DNA of 63,607 nucleotides from Fimicolochytrium jonesii (taxonomy: Eukaryota): positions 496,001-559,607 of the forward strand of contig NW_026515688.1 of the NCBI RefSeq assembly GCF_025526975.1, in the 5' to 3' direction. The translations under genes were made by a program, and so were the position numbers. Below, in pieces: positions 3,445 through 63,607 of the stretch. The notes beneath the pieces were generated by a model that did not search any database, had not been told where the DNA came from, and saw nothing but the letters and a program-made list of their open reading frames with translations. How positions within the stretch are numbered: position 1 is the first letter of the stretch; every line of letters starts with the position of its first letter.

Positions 3445-4186
3445 GCTCACACTCGTCAGCGGGAAACCGCCCAAATTCCGTTCAACTGTCAACCGTCAGA
3501 CATGCGTTTCTTCAAACGCAAACTCACGGTCCAACAGCCCAGCTATGAAAGTGACAGCCCGCCTTCCTCCCTACCGCTGTGGTATACTCTTCGTCGTCGA
3601 ACGGAATGCTGCAAACGATGTAGAACGTTTGCAGGTGTCAGTCACTCTCTACGCACAGTCGTTGCCGAATCACTTGGTGAATGGGACACCCTGGAGTGGA
3701 AGCAAACGTGGCGGGCCCGCTTCTCATTTGTCGCAGTATGAACACTCAGACGATCACCAACTTCCGACGATACAACCCGGTTGCTTTATCCCGTCCTGTA
3801 AGCCGGCGGATGAACCCGTTGAATGTGCGCCGTGGGGGCAGGAAGATATCGATAGGTCCCACCCACTGGCACCCAGGCTCTCGCAGGGGAACGCGTTCAA
3901 AGTCGACACAGACTGTCAGCAGGGGATCGGCGCTCGAGATTCATCAACAACCGTCAGTGTAACGATGTGTCATCCACAAGGCACAGAATAAACTACTGTT
4001 GAAGGGACATTGATTTATGTAAGGAGGACAAGATCTCATTGGAATCCACTGCGATGAAAGTGTCTAGATACACATTTAATGTCGATCAGACTTATTAAAG
4101 CCTGCGCAACGCTCACGTGATGAAACCCACGTGATGGAACGCTCTCTCGGACGCTCTCTAGGACCCTCTGAACTTCTTGATTCAAT

Positions 4187-4303
4187 TTAGGGTTAGGGTT
4201 AGGGTTAGAGTCCTGGTTCAATTGAGAATACAATGTTTACAAAGTAGGGTTAGGGTTAGGGTTAGGGTTAGGGTTAGGGTTAGGATTAGGGTTAGGGTTA
4301 GGG
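4187..4303 (+). repeat. Interstitial telomeric (TTAGGG)n tracts
   Basis: Three TTAGGG plus TTAGAG (4187-4210), then TAGGG, 5x TTAGGG, TTAGGA and 3x TTAGGG (4245-4303). Each tract is followed by a TTCAATT(G/T)AGAATACA..GTTTACA motif (4217-4241 and 4310-4334). Confidence 0.95.
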
Positions 4304-4594
4304 TCTCTATTCAATTTAGAATACAGCGTTTACAGCATCACAAATCTGCCACATAGTAAGAATCTTGCGGCGGCAAGCTATCGTTTCAGAATAGCTTCAT
4401 TAATCGTTTCATACAAATCAATGTGGCTCATCCGTGGGTGACTCAGCGGTGCCGTATTAAATATGGTGGCCGCAATAGCGCGGGATATGTCGCGCTATTG
4501 CCCAGCCGCCCTTTCCCCCCTACACCCTCTTCGCGCTAACCGCCTTTGCCGTCGGATCCCTCTCCCTCTTCTTTCCTCGACGGACGGCGAGCTC

Positions 4595-7500
4595 TCAACC
4601 ATCACCGCCGACCGCTTTGACCGACGGCTCCCTGCTGCCAGCGCTCCCTGCCACGGCTTCTGCGGTTTTCGACTCTGCCGCGCGGGTGGCTGCACTTGTG
4701 GCCGCCGGTGGTTTCCGTCCACCGGCCACCCAGCTGGCCACATCGCACAGAGGGGCCGCCCAGCCTTCCGTGCCCTGTCAGCAGGGCGGCGGGGGGGGGG
4801 GGGGGTGGGGGTTAGCATTTGCCATCCATCAGCAACAGGCGCGCGCGGTCTTACCCCTTGATCCTTGCCCACGGCCGTAATGTTCGAGGCTTTCCCGTGC
4901 AGAATGGTCCACATGATAGTCCAGCGCGCAACGTGGACCTGACTGGTGGAATACGTGGCCGGGAGCACAAGCGCCCCCTTCGCATTGCGCTCCCCCACCG
5001 TGCCGTGAATGATCCAGCTGGCCATGCAGCACGAGAGAACCCCGCAGGAGTCCATGTCCTGCTGGCGGGGGTGCGACACATAGATGGGGGGGACGTGGGC
5101 CCACCTGCGGGCATAAACCCACAGTGGATCATGTACCGCACCCTGTCCACGATGCGCCAGCGAATGTCCTCGGTCCATACGGCCGCGTTCATTTTCCCCG
5201 ATCGCTTGCCGAACATGGAGTCGTAAAAGTAATGCCGGCCATCCGTCCGGTCATACCAGTACGAGGCGAAATGGTTGCGGTTTCTGTGGAGGATGAAGTG
5301 GGCAACGTCGTGTTCTGCTGGCGACTGTGGAGGGGGGTTGTTAGCGCGGGATGTGCGGCAGTGCCTCGAGAATGTACAGCACTTACCGGGTGAATGTATG
5401 CGGGAGCCAAACACCCCTCACCGATCAGCAGCGCCTCGCCGGCCGTCCACATGCGTTGTAGGGGTTGCCCTGTCTCCCTCCGGGTCACGGCCGCCGACTT
5501 TGCCAGGGTGTCGACGTACGTGTATATCATGGTCAGCGACAGCCAATTGCTTGCGCTCTTCGGCCTGCCGCCCATGTTCCCCACTAGGCCGGCCTTGTCG
5601 GGCGCGCCCATCCACCCCCTCCCCGCCTCCTTCAGGTTTGGGTAGAGGCCAAGCACGGTCGGCGGCAGAGTGAAGGGGCCGACGTCGCCATACTGGGCCA
5701 GGCGTGCGCACTCGTCCATCACAGCCTGTGGCGGCATCCAGAAGCCGGGCATCTCGCCGTGGCCGGTGGCGCGCGCATAGGGCACCACTGAGGCAGGCTT
5801 CGGCGGGCCCTCCCCCCTCTCCACCTCCGCTCATGACTTTGAGACACCCTTTGCATTGAATCCGATGCTTGTCAGCGGCGCCACCTGCCAGTGCTTGCGC
5901 GCCTCAGTGTTATTGAGCAAGTACTCCTCCCCTTTGGCCAGTTTCGGTGCGGCCAGCTTGGGTTTGGGTGCCCGTTGTTTTGCCTCTTGTCTCCCCTGCG
6001 CAGATACCCCGCGTTAGCGCAGCACCGCGGCAACGTCCACTCACCCAACTCATACCGGCTTTGCCGCTTCCTGCATGCGCGTGTAAGTGTCGTCTGCGAC
6101 GCCCCTGTAGCCTTCCCATATGCGGTCCGCCGCCTTCCCCAAAGTTGCCACGTTTTGCCTGATGGCCTTCTTGCACCCTTTCCCGCCATTGGCCTCTGAG
6201 CGCGCGAGCTTTCTGAATAGGTGCATGGTTTCGTCGAGCAGCTTTGAGGCCTCGGGGCCGCCTGTGGCTTCGTACCTCCCCTTGAACCCTCCGTGATAGT
6301 CCGCCATTTGGCGGGCCTGGGTCAGGCGAAGAGATAGCGTGGCCATATCCTCCGCCCAATTCCTATCCCTGTCCGATCCCTCCTCGTCTGACCCCTCCTC
6401 CTCCGATCCCTCCTCCTCCGCGGCTGCAGTGGGCTTGCCCCTCTTCTCGGGGGGCGCTTGCTCCGGCTCCCCCTCCTCTGCGCGCTTGCGCTTCCCAGCC
6501 TCAGCCTCCCCCGGCGCCTTCTCCGCCGCCTTCTCCGCCGTCTTCTCTGCCACCTCCTCCCCCACCCCCTCCGCCGCCTCCATGGCCACCTTCCCCGATG
6601 CCCCCTCGCCGACCCCGCTGACTGGGGAGCCAGAAAGCGCCTCGACCTGAGCAGCCGTGGGCCCTGCCCCTCCCAGCCGTTCTTGGTCACGCCGGCCACA
6701 GATGCCAGCGGGTCCGCGGGCCTTTCTTCCGCGAAAAGGTCGTCGATGCTCACGTCCTCGCGCCGACGTGCTGAATGCAGTCCCAGTACAGCGAGAAGCT
6801 TGCCACTTCCTCCTTGCTTGCCGTCTTGCCAAAGGTGCGGCCATACAGCGAGTACGGTGGCCAGCCCTTGACAAGGAGGGGGTTTGTCAGCGCGCGGATC
6901 TCCGGCCAAGGCGTGCGCCTGATGTCCCTGCCGGATGCCTTGTTGTACTTGTCCCAAAGTGCATCGCGGAGGCCCTCTCTGTTTTTCCAGATGGGCACGA
7001 TGGGCGCCAGGGGTTTCCCTGCACGGGGTGGGCGGAGCCTGAGACAGCTTGGTTACGAGCGCTAGCGCGGCGGGTGACGTTAACGCGGGTCACGCACCTT
7101 CTTTTTCATCCCCGTCTTTTTTAGCCCCGTGTTTTCTCTTCCCCCCGTTTTTCTCCCCCTCAACAAACAGGGAGCCTACGTAGGTGTCCAGAGCACGCCG
7201 GGCTGCGCGGGCGGTGTCGACGGGCTGCCCCATCAGGTCCCCCGCCACGATCCGCACTGTGTCGTCGCTGTCTGTGACCAGGTAGCTGCGGCCTGCGCTC
7301 CGAGAGGATGCAACGATGAGTCGGAGGGGCTCGCCAGCCAGCTTGCAGATCTCGACCAAGCTCTCGGCGGCTGTGATGAGCGCCCCCTCGGCGACGACAA
7401 CGTCCGCGATGGTCGCCGATATGCTCCCCACGTTGTCGCGGAGCGCCCTCCTGTCGTCGGGGTCCAGCTGGTCGACCAACGCCAGCGCGAGGCTACGTTG

Positions 7501-8007
7501 TGCGCTGTGGCCAAGCAAGTTGGCGGTCGCGGGCCTAGCCTCCGCACCGGCAGCCTCCCTCATCCGCCCCATGTCAACGTTGGCTGTTTTCCAAGCTTCC
7601 GCCATGCTCAATGACTTGGACCAATCAGCGGGGTCTCCCGCCCGTAGAAGCTGCAGCATTCGGTTGACCATTCTTGTCTTCTCTTGCTGAAGGATCCGCT
7701 TGGCGGACTTTCCACTGCGCTTCTTGGGCGCGGCGCTCGCCTCCTCCTCCCCAGCCTCCTCCTCAGCGCGCCCCTCCTCCTCAGCGCGCCCCTCCTCCTC
7801 AGCGCGCCCATCCTCCTCCGCGTCGCCCTCCTCCTCCCCGTCGCCCTCCTCCCCCCCTTCCTGCTCGTGCTCGCTCCCCTCGTCGCCGAAGGCAAGTAGC
7901 ACGCTGGTGGCCATGTCCGCCAGCGCCTCCTCGCTCGCGACGTCAGAGTCGGAGCCATCAGCGGCCTTGTCAGCGGCCTCCGCCACCTTTGACCGGCGGG
8001 CCGGCAT
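4595..8007 (-). pseudogene. Long multi-exon gene with C-terminal Ulp1/C48 (SUMO-protease-like) cysteine peptidase domain, disrupted
   Basis: Frame-consistent introns at 7019-7097, 5996-6055, 5325-5386 and 4775-4854. Motifs in order: WLSLTMIYTY (cf. WLNDEIINFY), NHFASYWY..YFYDSM (His, Asp) and PRQQDMDSCGV (Gln, Cys). Disruptions: in-frame TGA at 5831-5833, a 1-nt shift at the G7 run 5086-5092, and further shifts around 6.6-6.8 kb. Confidence 0.7.
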
Positions 8008-8274
8008 CTAGAAAAAGCAGTGGATATGCATGTGTCGTTAGCGCCCGTGCGCGGCAGTGCCATATATATGCCCGCTGCACACGCCACCCCCGTGTGCGCG
8101 GCGGTGCCCGCGGTAGCGCCTCCCCGCCCGCGCTATCGCATCCTTATGGCGAGTCTGTGGTGAGGCTATATATATATGCCAGCTGCACACCCCCATACCT
8201 CGCCGGCCGCTTCCATGTTTGACCGGCTAGGGCCGGGCGCCTTTGCCGCCGCTTGGCTGCGAGTCCCCATCTTT

Positions 8275-8338
8275 GTGTGGGTGTGTGGGTGTGCGTGTGT
8301 GTGTGAGTGTGTGTGGGTGTGTGTGTGGGGGTGGGTGT
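8275..8338 (+). repeat. Imperfect (GT)n/GTGGGT microsatellite in the divergent intergenic region
   Basis: gtgtgggtgtgtgggtgtgcgtgtgtgtgtgagtgtgtgtggg... read directly. Confidence 0.85.
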
Positions 8339-8663
8339 ATCTCCGTCTTCCAAGAGCCGGCCGCACTTAGCTGCTTACCCAATCCGCTGGAGGTGGCGCA
8401 GTCGCGGCGCAGCTGTGGCTTGCCGGTCACATGTCCACACTGCTGCTGTGATGATCGCCGCATCTCCAAGACCACACTGCCACACGAAACATCAAGCGCT
8501 TGCAGCGGACAACAGCCCCCCGGCCAGCGCCTACCTCCTTCCAGCTCAAGCCCGGCAACTCACACAGAGCACGCTCCGAAAATGCTCAGCGCTGACAAGG
8601 TGAGTGGCCGCTGTGTAGCCGTGGGCGTCTCTGCCGGGTGTTGACCGCCTGGGCTCGCAGCCC

Positions 8664-10348
8664 ATGCTGAGCACGACCGCCGCTTGCGGGAGGTCGAACG
8701 GCATGGGGCGCGCTGTCTGGGCGTGTTTGCCATGCGCCGATCCCGCAGCCCATGTTGAGCACGACCACCGCTTGCGGGAGGTCGACCGGCATGGGGTGCG
8801 CTGTCTGGGCATGCTGCTGTGCGCTGATCTCGAGCATGACCGCCGCTTGCGGGGGGTCGACCGGTATGGGATGCGCTGCCTGGGCATGCTGCTGTGCGCT
8901 GATCTCGAGCACGACCGCCGCTTGTTGGAGGTCAACTGGTATGGGATGCGCTGCCTGGGCATGCTGCTGTGCCGCGTCGGTGATTACGATTGCGCGGGCT
9001 GGGTCGCTAACACCTTCCCCCTCCCCTTCCCCTCCACCGCGCCGCAGGCCACGCCCCCCGTCGCACCCACCACGGTCGAGGCTCTTCTGATGGGCATGGG
9101 CGAGGGCCGCGCCACAGCTACCTTCGGCAACATGGTGGCCTTTTTGTATCCGCTGCTGGTAGACGCCGGCCTTGCCGCCTGGGACGCTAGCCTAGAAGAC
9201 AAGGGCAAGGCCATTGGCCTTTTTTCAAAGAAGATCAAGCAAGACAACCCCACCCTTTGGGGCTGGTGGATCAATAGGCCAACGCGGTCCCGTCACCACA
9301 AGAAGCGCGCCAAGCACCATATTGGGCTCCAGTCCGACATCATCGCCGCGATCACCGATGGCGGTCTTACCGCGGCCGACTTCTTGGTCGACCCCCGGCC
9401 CTCCGCCAGCCGCCCGGCTGTTCACATCGTGGTGCCAACGCCCGCCTCGTGCGATGGCTGGGAGGGCAAGATGGTCTATGCGGGGTTTGGGAAGAGGCCG
9501 GCGAAGGCGAGGGGCCTGGATGGGCTTGAGCAAATTGAACCCCGGGGGGGGGCCGACATCTACATCCGCGACAAGCACGGCGCCCTTGTGGCCACAATCT
9601 TGTACAATAGCGTGGGTCGTCGCGAACATGACCTGCGGCTGGGGCTCATTGTCGAGTCCTGTGGATCCCGGCCGGCTCTGGTTCGATGGAAGGCTTCAAG
9701 GGGCACAATGCACGCCACGGGGCTTCGTCGTGGCGTCAAGCACTCGGGATATGCCAGGGGGACGTCGCACTATTCAATGAAAGGAGGGGCTGACATTTCG
9801 GCAAAGAAGTTTCTCGTTGCCACGGAAAAGGCGTTCACCAAGCGACTGCTGCGGGAGCTCACCAAACGCAACCCCACCGCGGCGGCCTACCTGATGATGT
9901 CCATGCCAGAGGTGTACGGGCCACACTCCGATGAGTTCACCCTGCTGTTCGCCACGCGACCAACTATCAAGTGGTCGTTCACTCCGACCCGTCGGACGAC
10001 GGCGTCGCCAGCGAGCTGAACCCGCACACAGGCCGCGCCATATGGAAGCTGACCCCCAAGGAGGAGCTTCCGGAGGAGCTTCAGGCCCGCAAGCTATGCA
10101 CGCAATGGGTGGCAGGCTACGCCGTCGCTCCGCCAACCATCGTCGGCGAGTGGATATTTGCGCTGCCAGAGCAAGGCTTCTACTTGGTGCTGCAGCCCGA
10201 CTGCATATGGACGTGGATGTCTGACAAGCTCCACGGAACGGCGGAGCTTGACACGTCCGGCGTCAGTGGCCACACGGCTGTTGTGACGCTGCCCCTGGCG
10301 ACGGCTGCGGCCATCCGGAAATACGGCCTCCCAGATGAAGACGAATAG
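8664..10348 (+). pseudogene. TET/JBP-like 2OG-Fe(II) dioxygenase (fungal Tet-like family), one frameshift
   Basis: ORF 8664..10019 has GTMHATGLR (GxMxxxGxR) at ~9702 and FTLLFATR. After a shift at ~9957-9961 the frame reads NYQVVVHSDPSDD (HxD at 9980), WIFALP, and WMSDKLHGT (distal His at 10232). The true start may be ATG 9090. Confidence 0.65.
8665..8970 (+). repeat. Tandem ~75-bp repeat (4 copies)
   Basis: Units GAGCA(C/T)GACC(G/A)CCGCTTG.. start at 8669, 8757, 8832 and 8907 (periods 88, 75, 75). Confidence 0.9.
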
Positions 10349-10380
10349 CTGCGCCGCCCCCAGCAGCAGCGGCCCCTCGT

Positions 10381-10455
10381 GCGTAGATTTTGTAGACCGT
10401 GCCTGCGTAGATTTTGTAGACCTTGCCTGCCCTGCCTGCGTAGATTTTGTAGACC
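10381..10455 (+). repeat. Three copies of GCGTAGATTTTGTAGACC
   Basis: Identical 18-mers at 10381, 10405 and 10438, just after the TET-like stop codon. Confidence 0.9.
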
Positions 10456-10676
10456 TTGCCTGTGCAGAAAGGCTCCATCAATAGGCGAGTTTGGCGCGCA
10501 AGAGTCCGATGTGGCGAGGGGCTCGCTCCAGTAGCGCGGGCAAACGTGATGGACCGGACCTCGCGGTGAAGCTTTGGCGGCTGGAGGCCTGAGCTGCCCG
10601 TCCAGACCTCGCCCAGGGTATCTCCGTCCTGCGGGCGCCGCGATGACACGCACACACGTTAGCGCTGGACTCGTGA

Positions 10677-10799
10677 CGTTAGCGCGGGGTGGGTGCTAAC
10701 GCCTGTAAAGCCACGTTAGCGCGGGGTGGGTGCTAACGCCTGTGAAGCCACGTTAGCGCGGGGTGGGTGCTAACGCCTGTGAAGCCACGTTAGCGCGGG
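10677..10799 (+). repeat. 37-bp tandem repeat (3.3 copies), each unit a hairpin
   Basis: CGTTAGCGCGGGGTGGGTGCTAACGCCTGT(A/G)AAGCCA at 10677, 10714 and 10751, partial at 10788. CGTTAGC/GCTAACG is an inverted repeat within each unit. Confidence 0.95.
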
Positions 10800-10856
10800 C
10801 GTGGGTGTCGCTCACCGTGCCCCGGGGCTCCGCGTCTGCAGACTTCTACCTTCTAC

Positions 10857-13800
10857 ATGGTCGTGAGCAGACAATTCCAGACCGCCGAGACCGAGCTCAT
10901 TCTTACAATTGCGCGCAATTGCGCACACTTCCACCCTCGCACAGTCAAGGCAAACCCCCAGCCAGTCTCTGAAAGCCTTCAGCGCTTCGCAGGTAAGCGG
11001 GAGTCCTGGATCCTCCTCGAGAGCAGGCCCCTTGCTCAGCCCCCTTGATCTCATCACCTGCCTGCACAGCACGGCACAGCACGGCCATCATGTCATCACA
11101 CCAGGCGCTCCAGGGGCACCGGTGGGGTGGCTTCATTATGGGAGCAACCACACCACGGCGGAAGAGGAGGAAGGTTGCTCCGGTTACCCCGCGGCTGCCC
11201 ATAAATCCGCCAACCGCTGTGCAGACACCAATGCAACCCCTGCAATTCAATTTCCCACCTTCTGTCCAGCGCCACTTGCCCCAAGCAATTGCAGACATGG
11301 TTGGCGAGAGCTCCGGCGATGAAGACGGGCAACAGCACCAGCAGCAGCGAGGGCTTTCACCCGTGAACAGGGGTCTGCAGTGCCCACCGAACCTCCCCGC
11401 GCCCATCCCTTTCCGTTTTCCCAGCACACCGGGTGGGTCCCTGGTGCTTGAACCCCCGCCACCACCACCAGTTCAACGACCCCGCCCGCAAACACATGCC
11501 GGCACCAAGGTTTCCCTTCACCAAGTCATCCATAATCAGAATCAAGCTCAAAGGGAGCGCCTGACAACGTTCATCGGCAATGTTCACGTCCTTGCGCGCC
11601 ACACCACCTTCTTTCTCAAGTACTACCTTGGTGAGTTTTTGAGGCACACTGTATATTTCCCATAATATTTCCCATAACAATGTCCTGACTACTACGTCTG
11701 CCCACCGCAGCTGATCATCCTCTACGCGATTTCCCGGACATCACCAACAAGCACATCAGTGTGATGTTTGAGCTGCTCAACAATCCAGGCTACAACGGCA
11801 ATCCAGTCATCGCGCAAGAGGTGCGTCCACGGGTTCAAGAGTACTGTGATGTTCACGGATTCGCCCCCATCCGCATGCGATATTGCCAACAGACCGCAGC
11901 GTACACGGCTATGAGCATCTTCACAAACCTCAAAGTTAACGTACAAGAGCATTTCATGCAAATGTTTCTGCGCTACGTCAATGAAAGGCTTGGTTTGAAG
12001 CAAGTGGAGCGGCATCTCCGGAGAGCGCAGCAGCGACACTATTATCGTTGTGTCCGTCAATGTACAAAGTACGCGACGTTTGAAGAGTACCCAACCGAAG
12101 AGGAGCTTGCCCGCCTCACACGACTTGAGCGGACCATCCTCGACTAGTTATGGGCTCTGTTTCCTCCCCAGGATGAGCCGCTTGCGTACAGCCTTGCGGT
12201 GGACGCAATGCCATATTTAGGTGAGCTATGTCCCGTACATTTACCCCCCCCCCCCCCCCCCGCGGCTTCCTCTTTTGTCTAATCATGGTCCACACCTGCC
12301 TCGCCTCATCACAGGTGCCTATTGTGAGCTCTCACGCCTCTATGAGCGCTGTGGAACGCGGCTGTTTTCCGCTATCCCGCTGCGCAAATCTCGAATCCAG
12401 TCATCTGTTCGGATTGACACGCGGATCCTAGCCATTCATATCCTGGGTTTGAGCCAACGTCGCATGGGGAAATTCACCGATGAACGGAAGCGGGAGCTGT
12501 GGGGGCAGTTTCTCAACGTGAATGTAAGTCTCTATCCCTCTGCGCTTATTTCACTCACCTCACCTCGCCGAATGACGGATTGCAGGACAAGGTCTTCAAG
12601 GCTCGAACGAAGCTTGGTCTCAAATTTGATGGGTCAATCAGCACAAACGGGTATTCCGCTACCATCCACTTCAAGAAGCCAGGGCTCAAGTATGGGCATC
12701 GGGCCCGGAAGCGCAGCAAGGCCCAAATGCGGGAAGAAGTCAAGCAGCTGTATTTTGAGCACCACATCGCTGAACTACGGGAGGCTCTAAACATCGTCAG
12801 CATTGATCCGGGCAAGCGTGACCTCTTGTTCTGTTGAGACATCAAGAAGGAGCGGCCATTTAGGTACCTTTCAGTTGATTACTACTGCCTCGCTGTCCCC
12901 GCTGTCCCTCCCCGCTGTCGCCGCTGTCGCCGCTGTCCCCGCTGTCCCCGCTGTCCCCGCCGTCGCTGCTGTCGCTTCTGTTGGTTACGCCATCAATTTT
13001 ATGCTATCAACTTCCGCCATCGCTGATCTCAACGCTTCCTGTGCTGAGCACGACCGCCGCTTGCGGGAGGTCGACCGGCATGGGATGTGTTGTCGCTTCG
13101 CCATCGTAGTCGTGAAGAGCGAATCGCGAGCCCGGCTCCTACTCCAAGCTGGACTCAAGCGATCGCGGAAGTTGGCGGAACGTTCAATGAGATCAGAATG
13201 TGGACGATGCATGGCGACTGCGACTGCGACGGCGACTGAATTCGATCTGCAGTACCTCCGCTATCCCCGCTGTCTCCGCTGTCCCCGCTGTTCCTCCCGG
13301 CTGTTGCCGCTATCCCCGCTGTTGCCGCTGTCCCCGCTGTTGCCGCTGTCCCTGCTGTCGCCGCTATCCCGATCAACGCCCTCCTCAACCCTGTCCCAGT
13401 CCCCATCCCCACCATCCCCCCCCGTCACCATCCCCACCATCCCCTTTGTTCGACATTCCGTTGCCGCGTTCTCACAATGCACCACCCCATACCAGATACA
13501 CATCCAATCAACGGGCAGTCGAGACAAAGTCTCGGTACTTTTGAAGAGACATGACAGAGCGAAAGATCAATGCCGGCATCGCTGAGATGGAATCACATAT
13601 TCCGTCGCACAAGAGCATGAACATCAAGGCGTTCTCAGCGTTCATTGTGGATCACGTACATGCGGGTATGATGTATCATGCATTGTCTTCAAATTTGGTA
13701 ACACGTGGGCTGACATCCATCCATATCCCAGATCCCGCCCTGGATGAGTTTTACCAGGATGAGATTCACGTAGCTCGCAGATTCAAGGCGTTCTCACTGC

Positions 13801-14362
13801 GGCAAAAGTCTGAGAGCAAGCTCATCAAGAACATGCGACACCTGTATGGAAAGCATTTTTCGGTCATCATGGGTGATTGGAGCGACGCTGGAAAAACCAT
13901 GCGCTTTCAGGAGTCATCAAAGACCGAGGGGTGAGTGACCATCATTGTTTTTTATGTATTTTAATATGCTAACTCATCATCATGGAAATCAGATTCCGCA
14001 CACTCTTTGCAAGAAACAGCATTCCATGCTACTTGCTAGATGAGTATCGAACGTCTTCCGTGTGCCCAGACTGCCACGGGCGTGTGAAGAAAAACATCCG
14101 ATGCCGGCTGTCACCTCGGCCGTGGCAAGCTCGAAAGGGAAGAATGGAATTCGTCCATGGATTGGTGGGTTGCCCCAACCCCGAATGTATCAACCAAGAC
14201 TGGATGCCATTTGAGATTCCTGGAAGAAGACAACCACTACGACTACGGATGAAAGTGCACAATCGGGACGTCCTAAGCACCAAGAATTTCCTCTCGATTG
14301 TGCGCTCGGTGGTGTTTGGCATTGATGGCCGCAGACCAGACGCATTCTCCCGTAACCGGTAG
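10857..14362 (+). pseudogene. Fanzor1 (eukaryotic TnpB/IscB-OMEGA-type RuvC RNA-guided endonuclease), intron-rich, 3 premature stops
   Basis: Frame-consistent GT-AG introns: (10993-11069), 11631-11710, 12221-12314, 12524-12585, 12864-13495, 13666-13731, 13931-13992. Exons from ATG 11090 sum to 2277 nt (759 codons). Motifs: FDGSISTNGYS, RuvC-I IVSIDPG, FRYTSNQR, VIMGDWS, LDEYRTSSVCPDC, GCPNPEC, RuvC-III HNRDVLSTKN. Stops at 12145, 12835 and 13542. Confidence 0.9.
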
Positions 14363-14383
14363 TCTAGATTTCACCCCATCCCA

Positions 14384-14450
14384 TTTTCCGTGGTGGTTAT
14401 CTGCCATCCACATCATTGTACCTCTGCCTGAGGCGTCGCCGATGATGGCA
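14384..14450 (+). ncRNA. Candidate Fanzor omegaRNA scaffold
   Basis: Lies ~20 nt after the Fanzor stop. Can fold into GTGGTGG/CCATCCAC and ATCATTG/CGATGAT stems, the latter enclosing CCTC/GAGG. Position matches known Fanzor omegaRNA loci. Not proven. Confidence 0.35.
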
Positions 14451-14684
14451 ACTTGTAAATCTACTATGAGAGAGTTCGTGCACAAGCATTGGTGAGGTGA
14501 TTGCGGTGGGGCGTGTTCGGGCGGGTACATGCGTTTGGATACTCCAGCCAAATACGCCATAGGCTATTGAGCTGTCAAGAGGTGGTGGACCTGTGCAGGG
14601 CAATGGTGGGTAGTCGCATCTGCAGTATGGCCGTATATGAGAAGACCGTGGGAATGAAGGAGTTGTTGAAAGTGACGCCGATCC

Positions 14685-17600
14685 TCAGCTCGCTCCAGGT
14701 TTAGCCTCACAGGCCAGCGAGGCATTGTAGGCCTGATCGTCATCGAGGTTGACATGATTTCGGATGTAATCCTGGATCTCGGTGATGGGTTCTAACGCAA
14801 ACGGCACTTGTTGATATGCTTCTAATTCCATCAGCGTCCGAGATATGGACTCGAGTTTCTGGTAATTAATTAGACCGCCGTCGATTTTGTTCTTTTGGCA
14901 GGTGTCGATGAAGACCTGTGCATGCGCGGGAATACGTTGGCAAAGTGAGGATAAGGCGATGCTTTCCAATCATCCTGTCAACTTACCAGGTCACCTTGAT
15001 ATAGTCCAGGGAAGGGAATCAGGGGCGGATCGCTGGCGCGTATTGCAGCTCGCAGATGCTTGTAATTCAACTCGCTAGAAACAGATTTCACGAGCTCGTC
15101 GTACATGCGCATATACTTGCTGCTCACAGCCTATGTTTGGGATAGAGTATAAGAGGTCGCGAACGGCCTCCGGCGTGCCATATATGGAGGCTGGTACGCA
15201 CCTCTTTGGTCTTTTTCAATCTATACACCGATGACGTTTGCAGGGCAGCTACAATCTCCTTCACTCCATTGAAGTTCTTCAACTTGTCGAGAGCCTACGT
15301 CGGTGGGAACGTATTGGTCAGTGCATGATTCAGGAGGCCCTACTTGGATCTGCATACCAGATCGATACCAACCTGCCCTAACGCGACAGTCTTCTCAAAG
15401 ACTGCAGCACGTGTCTTCACATTATCCTTCGCGGTCACTATCTCGGTGACAAGCCATTGGACAACATGATTCGACCACCTTGTCATCCGTAAGATGTTCG
15501 GGGCGTCGGTCTCTCTGTTGTCGCCTATCCAGTTCAAATCCAGATATTCGCTGGACTGCACAGAAGAGTTAGATGAATTCACAAGGAGATCAGAGTCGGC
15601 GAGACATACCCGTATGCTCTTGAACAGGTCAAACTCCAGTAACGTCAGTTGTCTTGCCAGCTCAATAGCCTCCAGGTCCAGGAACCTCAGTTTAACCTCT
15701 TCCACTCCTTCCAGAACTTTGCTGCCTTTCCCCCCTCCAAACGGCACCCAGCCGCTCGGCTTATCGGCAAGTATCGACAGCGTTTTGCTGCTGCCTGACA
15801 TGAGGCTCGATGAAACGTCTTGGGAGTACCGTTTCGCTAGAAACTTTGGGAGTAGCGGCTTAGGTGCCACCGGCAAGAGGTCTTCCGATTCCATCACTTC
15901 GGAGGTCTACGAAACACGTTTACGTCACTCTTATTGGAGGCATGATAGTAGAAAGCGCCGTTACCTTGCGTTCAAAAGCTATTCGCAGACCGAGACCCAT
16001 CTTGCTCTCTTTGAACGAGTCCTCGATAAAGTCCCCGAGCACCTTCTTCAGATTTTCATCATCCTCGAAATCCCTCCAATGATGCTCAATCCAGAACTTC
16101 AGTAGGTTGACGATGCTAGAACACAACCATAGAGTCAATCACACGGCTCTCTATCCGGGCAACTCAGGTAACACTTGCACGCGTCAACGAACCGAAGCAG
16201 GATAGGCGACTGCAAGGAAGCTTCTTCATCTTTGCCTTTCGCAATCTCCCGGTATTTGGCAAGAATCGCTTCCAGCATTTCGCCGGTGGACATGAACGAT
16301 CCATGTGTAAGCAGAATCGTCTCCTGGAAATGGTGATCTGGTGATGTTGGTCCCGAATGGTGAGCCAGCCTGCAGATTGGGTTCATTGGAAAGCGCTGCG
16401 CACTTCTCGTACCATGGACAGCAGGATCTATCAGCCGCTCTAAAAGCTTTTCTCGCGTTCCTCCTTTCAGACGTTTCTGGCCACCTTCACCGCGGATGAA
16501 GACGATGTTCCCGCTGGACTCATCCACGTCATCTTTTGCCTCTCGTGTTGTTTGCAGTTGTTTGAGGACCTATGATCGGATAATGAATTAGCGATGCATA
16601 GGAGAGAATTCAATTATGTTGTCGAGCGCACCTCTTGCTGCATCCTTTGGCGGAGCTTGCCCATATCTTCTCGAAGTGCGACCGTCTCCTCCTCGCTCAG
16701 CGCCTTTAGCTTCTCGGTCAACTGAGCAACAGGTGGACCCTTAGTATACGCTTAGGGCCCCGAGCACTACACAGAAGTCTGCGCACCTTCAGCCGCTCAT
16801 CGACAGCGACCTTCTCCGCAATTACATCAGACAGTTGCTTGCGGAGAGTCTGTGTTTCTGCAAGCAGCGTGCGTTGCTTTTGGACATATGAAGCGTGCAG
16901 AACATCAGACAGACTGTTGCCTACGTCGGGGAGCCTAGCATGCGCACACTACCTCGGCGGGAATTGCGGTGGATCTGGGCATTGTTTCTCTCGCTTTGTC
17001 CTGTAGATTGGATTCCGTTCGCAGTCTTTGAAGCTCGGCTGTTTCAAGAGAATGCGCTTTCTGATATGCCTACGCGATTGTGTCGATGAGCATCTGCACG
17101 ACGGCAGGTTTGCTACTTTCTACTCTCACATACCATAAATGAGCTTTCAGTCTCCTCACTCCGCCGCATGATGGCCTGCAACTGGCTGTGGTGCTGCTTT
17201 GTCAGATCCGCCATGTTTTTCCGGTAGTACTCGTCCTGTTGCGCTGCCGCATATTCGAATAGCTGGAGACTGGTCTTTTCTTTCAATTTATGAGGGAAAC
17301 ACATGCGTAAGCTTCAAATCCTTATGCGTAAGACAAATGCTTGGGCGTGCATACCTCAAGATACGATATAGTGTTGGCCTGTTTCTCGATGTGATCTTGC
17401 AGCGAGTGGAGTTGATCAATGAAGCGTTCGCTGGTTTCTTTATCCTGGATCCCCGCTGCTGCCTGGGATTTGTGAGTAAAAAGCCATCGACACCAGCCTC
17501 ACGCCGCAGTTTACCTCTAATAGTCGATTCTTATGCAAAGCAACGTGCTTCTCTTCGAGCAATTGTCGGACTGTTTCCTACGGATACATGGGGTGAGCGT

Positions 17601-22601: not shown

Positions 22602-24010
22602 GCGGTTGTTGGCAATGCTTCTGCGCGATTGAACCACATAAAAAGGAATCCTGTGGCTGCGAAAGACCTCCCAAAATACCTTACGTATAGCTTCACAACT
22701 TTCTTTGACCTTCTCGTATGGATACCCTTTCCGATGTTCTTGGACAAGATTGCGTTACAAGTACCAGCGTGAATTGGAAGAGAATCGATAGAGTCCCTTG
22801 TTTCTGGCAAGCTGGTGTGCGGTGACATGTGCTAAAAAACGCGTGGGGCAACCTTCAAGGTCATATCCTTCCTGTCAACGCTGTTTAGACCACAACTGTC
22901 ATTTTCTGGAAAATATTTACACAGGGTATACAGTATGTGTCTATATGTCTGCGACCTCACGTGACTTCCAGGCCGTTTACACTCTGATGCGGTTCATTCG
23001 CTTTGATGGAGGCAACATAGCTTTGATGTGGATGGGGACGTCAGCATCATCATCAGCCGTCTTGTTGAGCATCGACTTCAAAAGGCCAAGAACACTTTTT
23101 GGAGTTTTCCTCGGAAAGTCTCGCGACAGGAAGACCTCAGGCCGACCATTGCTGCGCCACCCATTTCTGGACGTTTGTCGCGACGGCGGCGGCGCCGTTT
23201 TTGGCCTTTTTCCTTACCCACCATTGCCAACATCATTGCCATCGCTTCGACAGACATACACATACAGAACCTCTGCCGGCGATATTCGGGCTCAGGACCT
23301 CCTAGGCTTGAGGTTCCCAGTTAACAACACTCAATTTGAATCACAGGCTGCTGAGAAATATGGATTTTAGTGATGAAGGTAAGCAGTAGAGCATCGCCGG
23401 CATTGCGTGCCTGATTGCGGTGGACAAGGGTGTCGTACGGCTCCAGGAGTTCACCACAGTGTTCTGATATGCATGCTTTCGACCTTTTTATATTTGCCCA
23501 GGACAAAACGGCGTGCAACAGGCCCTTGGGCAGCCGGAGCGGGACGAAGGGGGAGAAAGTAGGGAGCCGAGGCCAGGGGCAGCGGTGAGGCCGGGGGCAG
23601 TGCAACAGGACCTTGGGCAGCCGGAGCGGGACGAAGGGGGAGAAAGTGAGAAGCCGAGGCCGGGGGCAGCGGAGAGGCCGGGGGCAGCGGTGAGGCTGGA
23701 GGCAGCGGTGAGGCCGGGGGCAGCGGTGAGGCCGGGGGCAGTGAGGGTTTTGAAGCAAGGGAAGCAGTTTCGATACAGCGCGGGTTGTATTGACTGCCGG
23801 GTGAAGAGCTCTTCTAGATTCTATCGTGCGCCGTGGCCGGTTTTGGCTTGGGCAGAGGCAATGGGGAGGGATTTCTTCTTCGGCAAGGGAGCGACGCAGG
23901 AAATTGTTTGTGGGGCATGTTGGACGGCTTGGAGGCAAGTGGGGGTGTTTCAACATGAGGAGGGCCTGGGGGTGAACAAAGGCATACAGACAGATGTTAT
24001 CAACAACGTC

Positions 24011-24548
24011 TGTTATGGACGACGCGCCCATACCATAAGCTTACCTACTGACAGCCGCCAATGTCAACCGCCAAATGTCAAACGCCAATGTCAATGTCAA
24101 TGTCAGTGTCAATGTCAGTGTCAATGTCAATGTCAATGCCACTCCCCCTCTCTCCTCTCATTTCGCCAATCCTCTTGCAATATTGCCACTCCTCCTCTCT
24201 CCTCTCATTTCGCCAATCCTCCCTCGGCTTCTCCACACCCCCCACTGCTTCCCCATAGCCAGCAGCTGTAGCAATGCTCTCTACGCTCGCCACGCACGCT
24301 CTAGGAGCATAGCTGGCGCCCCCCAGTCCCCTCTTGTTGTTGTTGTTCTCTGATCTGCTGGGTTGCCTATCTATAAATAGCCAGCCTCTCTTCGTCCATT
24401 CCCTTCCTCCCCAGCAGATCAACACCAGTTCTTCTCATCTCCTGTTCTAGTCCTTGTTTCTTGTTTCGCCAATACAATCTCTTGTTGCCTATCACTCTCG
24501 CCTTGTCTTCTCTACTTCGCTTCCGCCTCAGTCGTCGAGATCATAACA
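24011..24548 (+). mobile_element. Solo LTR (copy 1), no matching TSD
   Basis: TGTTATG...CATAACA termini, TATAAATAG box at ~24373, similar to the LTR at 24704. Flanks are ACGTC/GTGCT. Confidence 0.7.
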
Positions 24549-24703
24549 GTGCTATCCCGTAATAAGAAGTTTGAACAAGCTTCATCCTGGGCAACGAGCA
24601 GTGTACTCACCTTGCATCTTGGTGCTCGCCAAATCTTTCAGCACAGGCCTGCTATGTAGAGGAGGGTGCGCTTGCCGAGCAGAATCTGATTCACTTAACC
24701 AGG

Positions 24704-25233
24704 TGTTATGGACGACGCGTCCATACCATGCGCTTACCTCATGACAGCATCCCAACAGTCAGTCAATGTCAATTCCCTGTCAAAACCTGACATCTGCCAA
24801 ACCTCGCAGCCGCACGCAGCCGCGCTACCCCACACCTGCCACTGCCTTCATTTCTCCACGCAGCCGCACGTAGCCACACCTCCCAACACTCGGCGCTTAC
24901 AAACCCTTCTTCATACTTCCCCACGTACCCGCCCACAGCCTCAGCGTAGCCACCCCATCCCCAGTCTTCTGTTTCTATGCTTCCCCACCCTTGGCGCTTC
25001 TCTTGGCTTCCCTCTCATTCCGTACCCTTCTGCTTCCCCACGCTTCCCCAGCCTTCCCAGAAAAGCATAAATAGCCGCCTCCCCTGAGCTCCCCACTTCC
25101 TGATCCCCCAGCAGATCAACACCAGTTCTTCCTAGTCTTGTTCTAGTTCTTGGTTCGGTCTGAATACCATTACCTGTCAACAACCTGCACCACAAGTCGC
25201 CTCTATTTCCATCGGCTCCGCCCAGTCATAACA
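24704..25233 (+). mobile_element. Solo LTR (copy 2) with 5-bp TSD
   Basis: TGTTATG...CATAACA termini flanked by CCAGG (24699-24703) and CCAGG (25234-25238); ATAAATAG box at ~25068. Confidence 0.85.
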
Positions 25234-27286
25234 CCAGGGAGAGACTTCTGCTCTATCTTCGTTGAGTCCCAGGCCCAGTGCGTCGCGTCGGTTACTCTTC
25301 CCGCCATCAGCATGTGTCTGCTTGTCTGCCAGCATGGGCAGCCCCCTTGCTCTTCATCACAAACAATCATCGTCTCCTATTCGCCAACGACATGGTCTCT
25401 GCCACCTCCACATGGAGAGATCCTTTCAAAGCGGCTTCCCGCCTGCCAATTGATTGCCGTTTCTGTGGCCGTACAGGAATATGCTTTGTAAACTCTATTG
25501 AAAAGGGGGACTGGAAATACAACTGACATTATGATTTGGCTGTATCAGTTGGCCTCAAGCATGTCATGCCAGTGCCTGTCTTGACTTTCGTCCTCTGTCT
25601 GCCTTCCAATCATTCCATGAAGGCGTGAACAGGCCCTTGTAACGATGCTGATTGAACATATGCCAGCGGTCTCGAAGCAAACCATCATCGTTGATGGAGG
25701 TGTGTAACAGGTTATGCCTGTTAGATATTGCAGTACAGTCCCAATGGCCTGAACCGCGATGCTGCAAACTGTCAGTCGCTGTCAAACTCCCGTCAGTTTG
25801 AACAGAGTTCCTTCTAGCCTCCCATACGTTTATAGTCCGCAGCTGATCGCTAGCGGGCACGAGGAGCATGGATCCCAATCATGCTTACGTTTGCCGTTAC
25901 GTCAGCCAACTCCGGTCTCTGAAGATTCGGCGGATGATATCTTTGGTGTTTACCAACCCGCAACTCCTCTTCACCTTCGCTCGATCCACAAACACCAATC
26001 CGCAACTGCTCTTCACCTTCGCTCGATCCACTCGATACAAGTCGCTCGCATATATTCTTGCCCGCAAATATGTCGTTCCCTCAAATTCAATACGATCCGG
26101 CAAGCGGTCATAGACATATACTTCTCAATCCGGGCGAAACGGTTCTCCTGGTGCCAACATCAGTTCTGGCTGCGGGCGGCGCTTGGACTATGCACAACGC
26201 GAATCCAGCGACTACTTATCCATTGACTCCAAGTCTCGTTAAACTCTGCCCGCGACTACCAAGCAAGCAGACGAGAGATGCTCGCCATTGCGAGATTGAC
26301 CCCGACGTCTTGACCTCGGCCTTGACACATGCCGAGGAGAATGGCTGCGGTGATAGCTGCCAACGGGGGAAGCACAAAGTATTTAGGAGACTGATGCCGT
26401 GGTCGACGCTGTCAATTCAATGGCAGCTCGCGATGGACACTGACTTAATCACGTGAGGTCGCAGACATATAGACACATACTGTACATAGATAGGTACTAC
26501 GTATACATACATATGTACATGGAGGATGCTTACACATATAGCACACAAGATAGCAGACGCAGAAACTTGTATGGTATGTACTGTATATGGATGATAGCCT
26601 GCCATATCCCAAGTCGTCGCTCTCGGCAAATAGCTGGATGTCTAGATTTACTGGCAGCCGGAAAACCACCGAAAGACGAAAAATGAGTCTCTCGACAGTC
26701 ACCACTCATCGTTCATCAGGCAGCAGCGCACAAATTTGGTCGTGCGTTGTAGGTGTGCCAAGAGTAGCCACGGCGTACAAACGCACGACTGTGTGATTGC
26801 GCGGAGTCAGGGCTGCGCATCCGCCGTGCTGATCCACGTAGCCAGCGCAGTTTGAATAGGTATACGAGGGAGCCCTGGCGGGGCATTCTTTATACCTTCA
26901 CGCACAATTCACTGCAAGCCCTTCATCAACCGTCATACTTGTGCGCGGGGTCGGGCCATCGACAAAAACACACAATCATCCTGTGAGATGTCGTCGGCTT
27001 CCGTTCTACCAGCGGGAAGTGACATGGATCATGCACAACCATGAACAGAGTATATATCGACCTGCATGCTTAAACCAACTTACAGTATGATATCGTTCGC
27101 CAGAGGTGGGAGATTCCTAGCCCGCCACCAGTCGTCCAAGTTGGAACGTCCAAGTCTTCAAGGCCCCGATAGTTGAAGTCCGAACCACCATCGCCGAGTG
27201 ATATTCAAAGCAGGAAGGAACAGTCGAACGCTTGTTTTTGCCATTTCTGCCGTCCATCCCAAGTGACACGGGAACGATTGACGAGA

Positions 27287-62989: not shown

Positions 62990-63607
62990 CATCTTTCATA
63001 TTTATATTGGTCCAACAATTTGGTACAGGTCACACAATGTTCCACAAGATCATTTCGAGACTGCAGAAGTACGGCCCCTGATAACTGACTACGTAACAAG
63101 CGCAGTTCAGACAGAAATAACGGACTTGCTACCTACGTCAGAATTCTGCAGGTCGAGTCCGCTGTGTTTCCACCAATCCAGGACTGCGTCGCTCGCCGCC
63201 GAGTGGATTGCAGTGTTAGAGTAGCGTAGCTGGAGCCCGCTGTTTTGCCATGCGGACTTGTCTCTGCCATGGCACGTTTCCAACATGCCAGACAACGTGA
63301 GATACCTTAGGATCCTTAGGATCCTTAAGCAGTTCCTTAAGGACATACTGCCGGGTACCTGCGGACCGTTAGGTACCTTAGGATCCTTAGAATCCTTAGG
63401 ATGCCGCCGTCCTAAGGTGAGATTGAGCCCACAGCTTTTCCACCAATCCAGGACCGCGACGCGGCCATAGCGGCTCGCCAAGTAGATTGCAGTATTGTCA
63501 TAGCGCAGATCGAGCCCGCTGTTTTTCCACCAATCAAAGACCGCCACGTTACAATGCAAGCTTGCCCAGTCGATTGCGAGGTTGAATAGCGCAGTTCGGG
63601 TCCGATG
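62990..63607 (-). pseudogene. Degenerate ankyrin-like 'LDWWK.SGL.L.Y' repeat protein; begins outside the window
   Basis: DWWKNSGLDLRYDNTAIYLASRYGRVAVLDWWKSCGL recurs several times; interrupted by a 9-bp CCTTAGGAT minisatellite (~63304-63416). Confidence 0.5.

What the first reader, a model, noticed from the sequence alone, without database searches (positions are those of the whole stretch)
4070..14450. Composite island linking a Fanzor1 nuclease with a TET-like DNA dioxygenase and a Ulp1-like protease, capped by telomeric repeats
Seen: a GC-rich block whose only genes are a Ulp1/C48-like protease (minus), a divergent TET/JBP-like dioxygenase (plus) and an intron-rich Fanzor (plus), with TTAGGG tracts at one end and no recognisable transposase. 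Established: Fanzors ride on many eukaryotic transposons; fungal TET/JBP genes travel with KDZ/Plavaka-type transposons; Ulp1 domains are carried by Zisupton/KDZ and MULE elements. I do not know of the three being described in one element. Inference: a selfish element pairing RNA-guided cutting (homing/copy maintenance) with two anti-silencing functions, oxidation of methylated DNA and deSUMOylation.
Basis: partly seen in the sequence, partly recalled or inferred. Interest (0 to 1): 0.92.

Follow-up and report, generated by a model that had tools for sequence, protein, structure and literature searches.

The report
Fanzor transposon carrying a DNA demethylase
This 10-kb block is a broken copy of a repeated mobile element in a chytrid fungus that carries an RNA-guided DNA cutter (Fanzor) next to a predicted TET-type DNA demethylase and a predicted SUMO-type protease, which likely help it escape the host's methylation-based silencing.

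Summary
Real, and largely as described. The block (about 4070-14460; GC 60% against 52-54% in the flanks) holds a Fanzor1 close to SpuFz1, a TET/JBP-fold dioxygenase and a C48/Ulp1-fold protease gene. It has no transposase and no terminal inverted repeats. All three genes are broken in this copy.

It is a dispersed family in Fimicolochytrium jonesii: 48 Fanzor models at 45 loci. 7 of 11 TET models lie within two accessions of a Fanzor (P about 8e-11). A second contig holds all three genes in the same order, and a third probably does. TET relatives are multicopy in Powellomyces hirtus. Differences between copies are strongly biased to CpG transitions (62/162 against 27/437), so the host likely methylates this family.

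Best reading: a non-autonomous element that pairs Fanzor homing with anti-silencing cargo. All activities are inferred.

Corrections: the TTAGGG tracts are subterminal, at one end only, and oriented opposite to a telomere cap; whether they belong to the element is untested. Most Fanzor loci show no annotated TET or protease, so the three-gene form may be a subset. My searches found no paper describing a Fanzor+TET element.

The parts
4065..4071 (+). Candidate left end (TA at 4065-66, or GATA at 4067-70, resembling the SpuFz1 TAM CATA); unverified
   Evidence: Sequence; SpuFz1 TAM from PMC10432273 supplement; no significant TIR
4180..4334 (+). Subterminal duplicated unit with two TTAGGG tracts (4187-4210, 4244-4303); G-strand reads into the element; membership in the element untested
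   Evidence: (D4)
4595..8216 (-). Large multi-exon gene (about 1100 codons): acidic and helical N-terminal regions of unknown function, C-terminal C48/Ulp1-like protease domain (His nt 5273, Asp 5222, Gln 5064, Cys 5046). Broken here by several 1-base frameshifts (about 7100, 6765, 6670, 5090) and a TGA near 5831
   Evidence: homologues P0025 and P0026; ESM Atlas C48
8272..8580 (.). Short divergent intergenic region with a (GT)n tract; likely a shared promoter (inference)
8581..10348 (+). TET/JBP-like 2OG-Fe(II) dioxygenase gene: short first exon (read by eye), intron with 75-bp repeats, main exon 9048-10348; HxD at nt 9980/9986, distal His at 10232. Broken here by a 2-base insertion near 9957; Gly at 10268 where other copies have the conserved Arg
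8664..8976 (+). Four 75-bp repeat units; a fifth copy lies in Fanzor intron 4 (13041-13115)
   Evidence: (D3)
10349..11089 (.). TET-Fanzor spacer with 24-, 33- and 37-bp tandem repeats; the same spacer is present at a second locus
   Evidence: P0025 residues 2-141 map to 10598-10149
11090..14362 (+). Fanzor1 gene, 7 exons (11090-11630, 11711-12220, 12315-12523, 12586-12863, 13496-13665, 13732-13930, 13993-14362); RuvC D nt 12805, E 14042, D 14267; zinc finger; premature stops at 12145, 12835, 13542
14383..14463 (+). Predicted omegaRNA scaffold and right end (TA at 14456-57 or 14462-63), placed by analogy to the SpuFz1 omegaRNA; folding not above shuffles (z -1.3)

Best explanation
The block is a broken copy of a dispersed Fanzor1 element family of the chytrid Fimicolochytrium jonesii, likely a non-autonomous DNA transposon, whose long form carries a predicted TET/JBP dioxygenase and a predicted Ulp1-type protease as likely anti-silencing cargo. 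In intact copies the Fanzor with its right-end omegaRNA would cut empty or excised sites so that repair restores the element (inferred from SpuFz1). The TET would oxidise the 5mC that the host puts on transposon CpGs (inferred from fold, retained catalytic residues and the CpG mutation bias). The large Ulp1-domain protein would counter SUMO-dependent repression, or bind the element's repeats as plant KIU/VANC proteins do (weakest step). Movement would need a transposase supplied in trans, which was not identified.
For: Shown: Fanzor identity. 48 Fanzor models at 45 loci on 28 contig lengths. 7 of 11 TET models lie within 2 accessions of a Fanzor, against 1.6% expected, P about 8e-11. Mis-model P0025 (KAI8817536) is collinear with window 10598 to 4598 across spacer, TET antisense and protease, and is directly followed by Fanzor KAI8817537 on another contig. 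P0026 joins the TET 5' end to the protease at a third locus, with a Fanzor 5 accessions away. Models at other loci run into sequence absent from the window (P0031, P0052, P0008). A 75-bp repeat is shared between TET and Fanzor introns. RuvC residues are kept in 24/25, 41/41 and 37/37 models where the motif was found; all four TET core residues are kept in 6 of 8 models spanning the core. HxD, His and Arg are conserved in P. hirtus relatives at about 36% identity, three of which are near-identical copies. CpG transitions: 62/162 against 27/437 (Fanzor) and 30/112 against 15/290 (TET). In Spizellomyces, 5mC is confined to transposons (PMC12695648, passage).
Against: No DNA of other copies could be obtained, so ends, TSD, empty site and true co-occurrence frequency are untested. 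Adjacency assumes that accession order follows gene order. 4 of 11 TET models have no retrieved Fanzor nearby, most Fanzor loci have no annotated TET, and only 2 protease models were found (proteins over 114 aa only). TET and Fanzor distances across 7 paired loci are not congruent (Mantel r -0.30; low power). The TET model is mediocre (pLDDT 50) and ALKBH3 scores Z 10.5 against TET2's 12.1. No direct Pfam hit for either cargo gene. The heavy CpG decay shows that the TET does not protect resident copies well. The predicted omegaRNA folds no better than shuffles.
Confidence: 0.62

Rival explanations
1. Two-part chimera: an abundant Fanzor-only element inserted into, or captured, a TET+protease module from another transposon (KDZ, Plavaka, Helitron or MULE type). 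The composite was then copied a limited number of times with no functional coupling to Fanzor.
For: Copy gradient of Fanzor 45 loci, TET 11 models, protease 2 models; 4 of 11 TETs lack a nearby retrieved Fanzor; no TET/Fanzor distance congruence; Mucor MCi-2 Fanzor elements have a constant 3' part and variable 5' parts (PMC3627910 section 12); TET genes move passively between transposon families (PMC12730594 section 4.1).
Against: TET-linked Fanzors are scattered over the Fanzor tree (9 rows, 6 changes, shuffled mean 8.3; quick tree, mostly unresolved, one origin not ruled out). Annotation misses are certain: the window's own TET and the one under P0025 are not annotated as TETs. The two genes share an intronic repeat, and no end-like structure was seen between the spacer and the right end.
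Confidence: 0.2
2. Same element, but the dioxygenase acts on another substrate (6mA like CcTet, thymine like JBP, or an AlkB-type lesion), so it is not a 5mC eraser.
For: The top Foldseek hit is CcTet, which also acts on 6mA (PMC12730594 section 4.2); AlkB/FTO folds score within 2 Z units of TET2; copies still decay at CpG.
Against: In Spizellomyces 6mA marks expressed genes and 5mC marks transposons, so removing 6mA would not obviously help the element. TET/JBP entries lead all three fold searches, and 3 of 17 family members hit PF20515 weakly.
Confidence: 0.13
3. Fragment of a larger mobile unit (viral, subtelomeric or rolling-circle) whose mobilising genes were lost, with the TTAGGG tracts a relic of telomere-linked origin or break healing.
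For: TTAGGG tracts, no TIRs; related folds occur in viral proteins.
Against: Intron-rich genes; no hit in IMG/VR; the block sits between two ordinary host genes; the repeat orientation is wrong for a left cap.
Confidence: 0.04
4. Host locus or segmental duplication.
For: None beyond the fungal-type introns.
Against: 45 dispersed Fanzor loci at 78-93% identity to this copy for the 10 models compared, different downstream sequence, broken genes, GC step.
Confidence: 0.01

Closest known systems
Spu-1 / SpuFz1 elements of Spizellomyces punctatus (PMC3627910; PMC10432273)
   Same: Closest solved Fanzor; same order of fungi; multicopy; no transposase inside; similar distance from stop codon to right end.
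   Different: Spu-1 is 2.1 kb, one intron-free ORF, 30-33-bp TIRs. This element is about 10.4 kb, its Fanzor has 6 introns and a longer N-terminus, no TIR was found, and it carries two cargo genes.
TET+ DNA transposons of Dikarya (Kojima 2025, PMC12730594)
   Same: A transposon-borne TET/JBP dioxygenase proposed to counter 5mC silencing and C-to-T decay.
   Different: Reported in rusts, mushrooms and Pezizomycetes, in DDE transposons and Helitrons. The main text has 0 occurrences of Fanzor, chytrid, protease or SUMO. Here there is no transposase, the host is a chytrid, and the TET lineage is too divergent for direct Pfam detection.
VANDAL/KIU non-TIR MULEs of plants (review PMC13317346)
   Same: Non-TIR element with a Ulp1-domain protein tied to anti-silencing and with repeats in non-coding regions.
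   Different: No homology tested or seen; those encode a MULE transposase and VANC, with no TET or Fanzor. An analogy only.
Mucor MCi-2 and MCi-5 Fanzor elements (PMC3627910)
   Same: Large TIR-less fungal Fanzor1 elements, with variable 5' parts in MCi-2.
   Different: They have defined TSDs and transposase remnants; no TET or protease is mentioned in the section read.

Membership tests
Fanzor1 | Homology to a characterised Fanzor1 | tested here: met
   SpuFz1 E 3e-21, 8e-16, 3e-14
Fanzor1 | RuvC D-E-D with the E six or so residues before the zinc finger | tested here: met
   D494, E653, zinc finger from 660, D728; criterion from PMC13565253
Fanzor1 | omegaRNA from the right end; TAM-dependent cleavage | not testable with these tools
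   Only positional analogy; folding z -1.3; this copy has 3 stops
TET/JBP dioxygenase | DSBH fold with HxD...H and 2OG-binding Arg | tested here: met
   Conserved across the family; the Arg is lost in the window copy
TET/JBP dioxygenase | Closer to TET/JBP than to AlkB | tested here: inconclusive
   TET/JBP entries rank first (CcTet E 1.4e-4; TET2 Z 12.1, rmsd 3.8, 223 aligned) but ALKBH3 Z 10.5; model pLDDT 50; PF20515 only weak and in distant members
TET/JBP dioxygenase | Oxidises 5mC or T in DNA | not testable with these tools
   Needs an assay
Peptidase C48 (Ulp1) | C48 fold with His-Asp-Cys triad and oxyanion Gln | tested here: met
   Atlas 27 of 30 hits C48, 0.96, TM 0.66 on copy P0026; His-Asp 17 and Gln-Cys 6 residues apart, as in yeast Ulp1 (spacing recalled)
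Peptidase C48 (Ulp1) | Pfam PF02902 score above cut-off | tested here: not met
   No hit: a divergent member, filed by fold only
Peptidase C48 (Ulp1) | SUMO specificity | not testable with these tools
   The family also includes NEDD8 and ubiquitin proteases (recalled)
KDZ / Plavaka / MULE / Mariner / Helitron superfamilies | Cognate transposase inside the element | tested here: not met
   No such Pfam domain in 17 in-block pieces or in P0025/P0026
TIR DNA transposon (Spu-1-like) | Terminal inverted repeats and TSD | tested here: inconclusive
   Nothing above chance between 3900-4700 and 14300-14800; true ends unknown
Telomere-capped element | Telomeric repeats at the termini in cap orientation | tested here: not met
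   One end only, internal, G-strand inward; no (CCCTAA)2 in the window

The most novel reading that the evidence does not exclude
The three proteins form one machine: the Fanzor-omegaRNA complex, or the repeat-binding protease protein, brings the TET to family copies and homing targets, giving a natural RNA-guided epigenetic eraser. The TTAGGG tracts would act as a Tbf1-type insulator, making a chytrid transposon with several stacked layers of counter-silencing.
Probability: 0.08. Interest if true: 0.95.

Novelty: new variant of a known kind. Interest (0 to 1): 0.72.

Why it matters
It joins two separate lines of work in one element: Fanzors as transposon homing nucleases, and transposon-borne TET enzymes as counter-silencing factors. 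It extends TET-carrying transposons to chytrids, with a TET lineage that Pfam misses. The native role of Fanzors and the function of transposon TETs are both open questions. Here a family with dozens of copies, a visible methylation footprint and a transformable relative (S. punctatus) makes both testable. It also offers a new Fanzor1 and a compact, divergent TET.

Tried and rejected
No genome is held. No sequencing run was listed (no evidence either way). Metagenome and IMG/VR scans with TET and Fanzor found no confirmed locus. The first fold, from a shallow alignment, failed (pLDDT 30) and was not used. PDB sequence searches for TET and protease were empty apart from one chance hit; so were NCBIfam and phages. 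The wide VIA search did not run. The Atlas gave no answer for the TET or for the protease's N-terminal domain, so that region stays unassigned. TIR/TSD search was at chance level. A weak Fanzor tblastn hit at 42.4-42.7 kb is the antisense of a host gene and was rejected. Three cluster members (P0034, P0061, P0065) are not Fanzors and were dropped; P0019 had no accession look-up. The CpG test used 46 of 48 Fanzor and 9 of 11 TET models. The tree used 38 rows and did not finish its careful search. Earlier scan notes: nothing found. Iyer et al. 2014 is not held and is known only through citations. Literature searches for the combination listed no paper describing it; the library lacks most subscription papers and Repbase, and two supplementary PDFs of PMC10432273 could not be read.
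Full report
Observation. The block 4070-14463 has GC 0.60 against 0.52-0.54 in its flanks. It lies between a Vac7 gene and a RasGEF gene, both on the minus strand. It holds three genes and no Pfam-detectable transposase among 17 in-block ORF pieces. TTAGGG tracts are real (12 matches against 0.04 expected) but lie at 4187-4303 only, inside a duplicated 55-bp unit, with the G-strand reading into the element. That is not a telomere cap. No inverted or direct repeat above chance joins the two ends.

Fanzor. Three exons match SpuFz1. Seven exons with GT-AG introns give 758 codons in one frame, with stops at 12145, 12835 and 13542, where other copies have mostly Glu, Arg and Gln/Arg. RuvC D, E, D and the zinc finger are present. 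The last exon is 100% identical to an annotated Fimicolochytrium jonesii protein (Spizellomycetales), so the window very likely comes from that species. By eye, the 100 bases after the stop resemble the SpuFz1 omegaRNA in their TTTTCCG start and their length to a TA (supplement row). This puts the right end near 14457-14463, but folding is not above shuffles.

Dioxygenase. Pfam gives nothing for the window or its 8 closest clusters, all from F. jonesii. A profile search of 1.84 billion representatives gave 9 hits: three F. jonesii, two Powellomyces hirtus clusters (one with 3 copies at 90% or more), one Geranomyces and three unnamed. HxD, the distal His and the 2OG Arg align across them, with few exceptions, and 3 of 17 members hit Tet-like PF20515 below cut-off. 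An AlphaFold model of a family member (pLDDT 50) matches CcTet and CMD1 first by Foldseek, TET2 and NgTET1 first by VIA (Z 12.1 and 11.1; ALKBH3 10.5), and JBP1/TET-annotated viral proteins. A TET/JBP assignment is likely, not certain. The window copy has a 2-base insertion near 9957 and Gly in place of the Arg.

Protease. The minus-strand gene spans about 8216-4595 with five introns (four, one read by eye). Its C-terminal domain has Trp-Leu-Ser, His, Asp, Gln and Cys motifs in C48 order (yeast Ulp1 spacing recalled). Sequence libraries miss it, but the ESM Atlas returns Peptidase_C48 for 27 of 30 feature hits and by structure. The N-terminal 800 or so residues are unassigned. This copy has several one-base frameshifts, some in homopolymers and possibly assembly errors, and a TGA where other copies have Trp.

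One element or coincidence. No DNA of other copies was available, so I used NCBI accession order as a proxy for gene order, checked against contig length. 48 Fanzor models fall at 45 loci. 7 of 11 TET models lie within two accessions of one; chance is 1.6% per gene, P about 8e-11. P0025 is a mis-predicted gene that reads through the spacer, the TET antisense strand and the protease, collinear with window 10598 to 4598. It is KAI8817536, and the next accession is a Fanzor in the same 90% cluster as the window's, on a different contig. P0026 joins the TET 5' end to the protease on a third contig, five accessions from a Fanzor. A 75-bp repeat occurs in both TET intron 1 and Fanzor intron 4.

Against a uniform three-gene family: 4 of 11 TETs have no retrieved Fanzor nearby; only 2 protease models were found; TET and Fanzor distances over 7 loci are not congruent (r -0.30); the Fanzor tree is largely unresolved. 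Annotation gaps, left-end loss or a chimeric origin could each explain this.

Methylation footprint. Using window codons as reference, amino-acid differences among copies explained by a CpG transition occur at 62 of 162 possible sites in Fanzor against 27 of 437 for other C/G transitions, and at 30 of 112 against 15 of 290 in TET (protein-level inference, 46 and 9 models). This is the signature expected of 5mC deamination. In S. punctatus, 5mC is confined to transposons and 6mA marks expressed genes (PMC12695648, passages). So the host likely methylates this family, which gives a 5mC eraser a purpose and also shows that protection is incomplete.

Mechanism. Shown: gene identities by homology or fold, dispersal, TET-Fanzor linkage, three-gene collinearity at two loci, CpG bias, and that this copy is broken. 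Inferred: restorative homing by Fanzor (PMC13565253, passages); 5mC oxidation by TET; removal of SUMO-type marks or motif binding by the protease protein, by analogy to plant KIU/VANC (PMC13317346, passages); mobilisation in trans, as no transposase was found in Spu-1 either (PMC10432273, section 7 and passages). Speculative: the TTAGGG tracts as a Tbf1-type anti-silencing barrier (PMC6410037, passages).

Comparison with print. Kojima 2025 (PMC12730594; abstract, section 2.1, first part of the Discussion and a term search) lists TET-bearing transposons in Dikarya only, with no mention of Fanzor, chytrids or proteases. Bao and Jurka 2013 (abstract, passages and section 12), Yoon 2023 (term search), Jiang 2023 (term search) and the readable Saito supplements show no TET cargo. 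Searches listed no paper on the combination; Repbase and most subscription journals were not searchable.

Verdict. A real, apparently undescribed variant: a Fanzor1 element with TET and Ulp1-like cargo in chytrids. Each part is known and the combination seems new; no activity has been shown, and the ends and mobiliser are undefined. Interest 0.72.

Noticed in passing
window 22929-26484: A second element of 3.5 kb with perfect 36-bp inverted repeats that begin TA-CAGT (Tc1/mariner-like ends), with internal 87-, 18- and 42-bp repeats and CpG o/e 0.77. No Pfam domain in 7 ORFs. Its ends do not match the Fanzor element.
   Followed up: partly
window 63140-63607: Repeat-rich stretch with 9-bp tandem units and 43-71-bp dispersed repeats at the window's edge; possibly the end of another element.
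   Followed up: no
window 12864-13495: Fanzor intron 4 is 632 bp and holds two 9-bp arrays plus a copy of the TET-intron 75-bp repeat; at least one other copy (P0047) has a similar array.
   Followed up: partly
P0066, P0072, P0073, P0067 (Powellomyces hirtus): Three near-identical TET-like copies on two contigs plus a divergent fourth; their neighbours were not checked.
   Followed up: no
window 6753-7040 (minus): A compact Trp-rich domain-like segment in the protease gene's N-terminal half, with no family assigned.
   Followed up: partly
P0060 and P0062, with P0004 and P0024: Two loci on different contigs have identical Fanzor C-termini and near-identical TET N-termini, suggesting a very recent copy or conversion event.
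   Followed up: no
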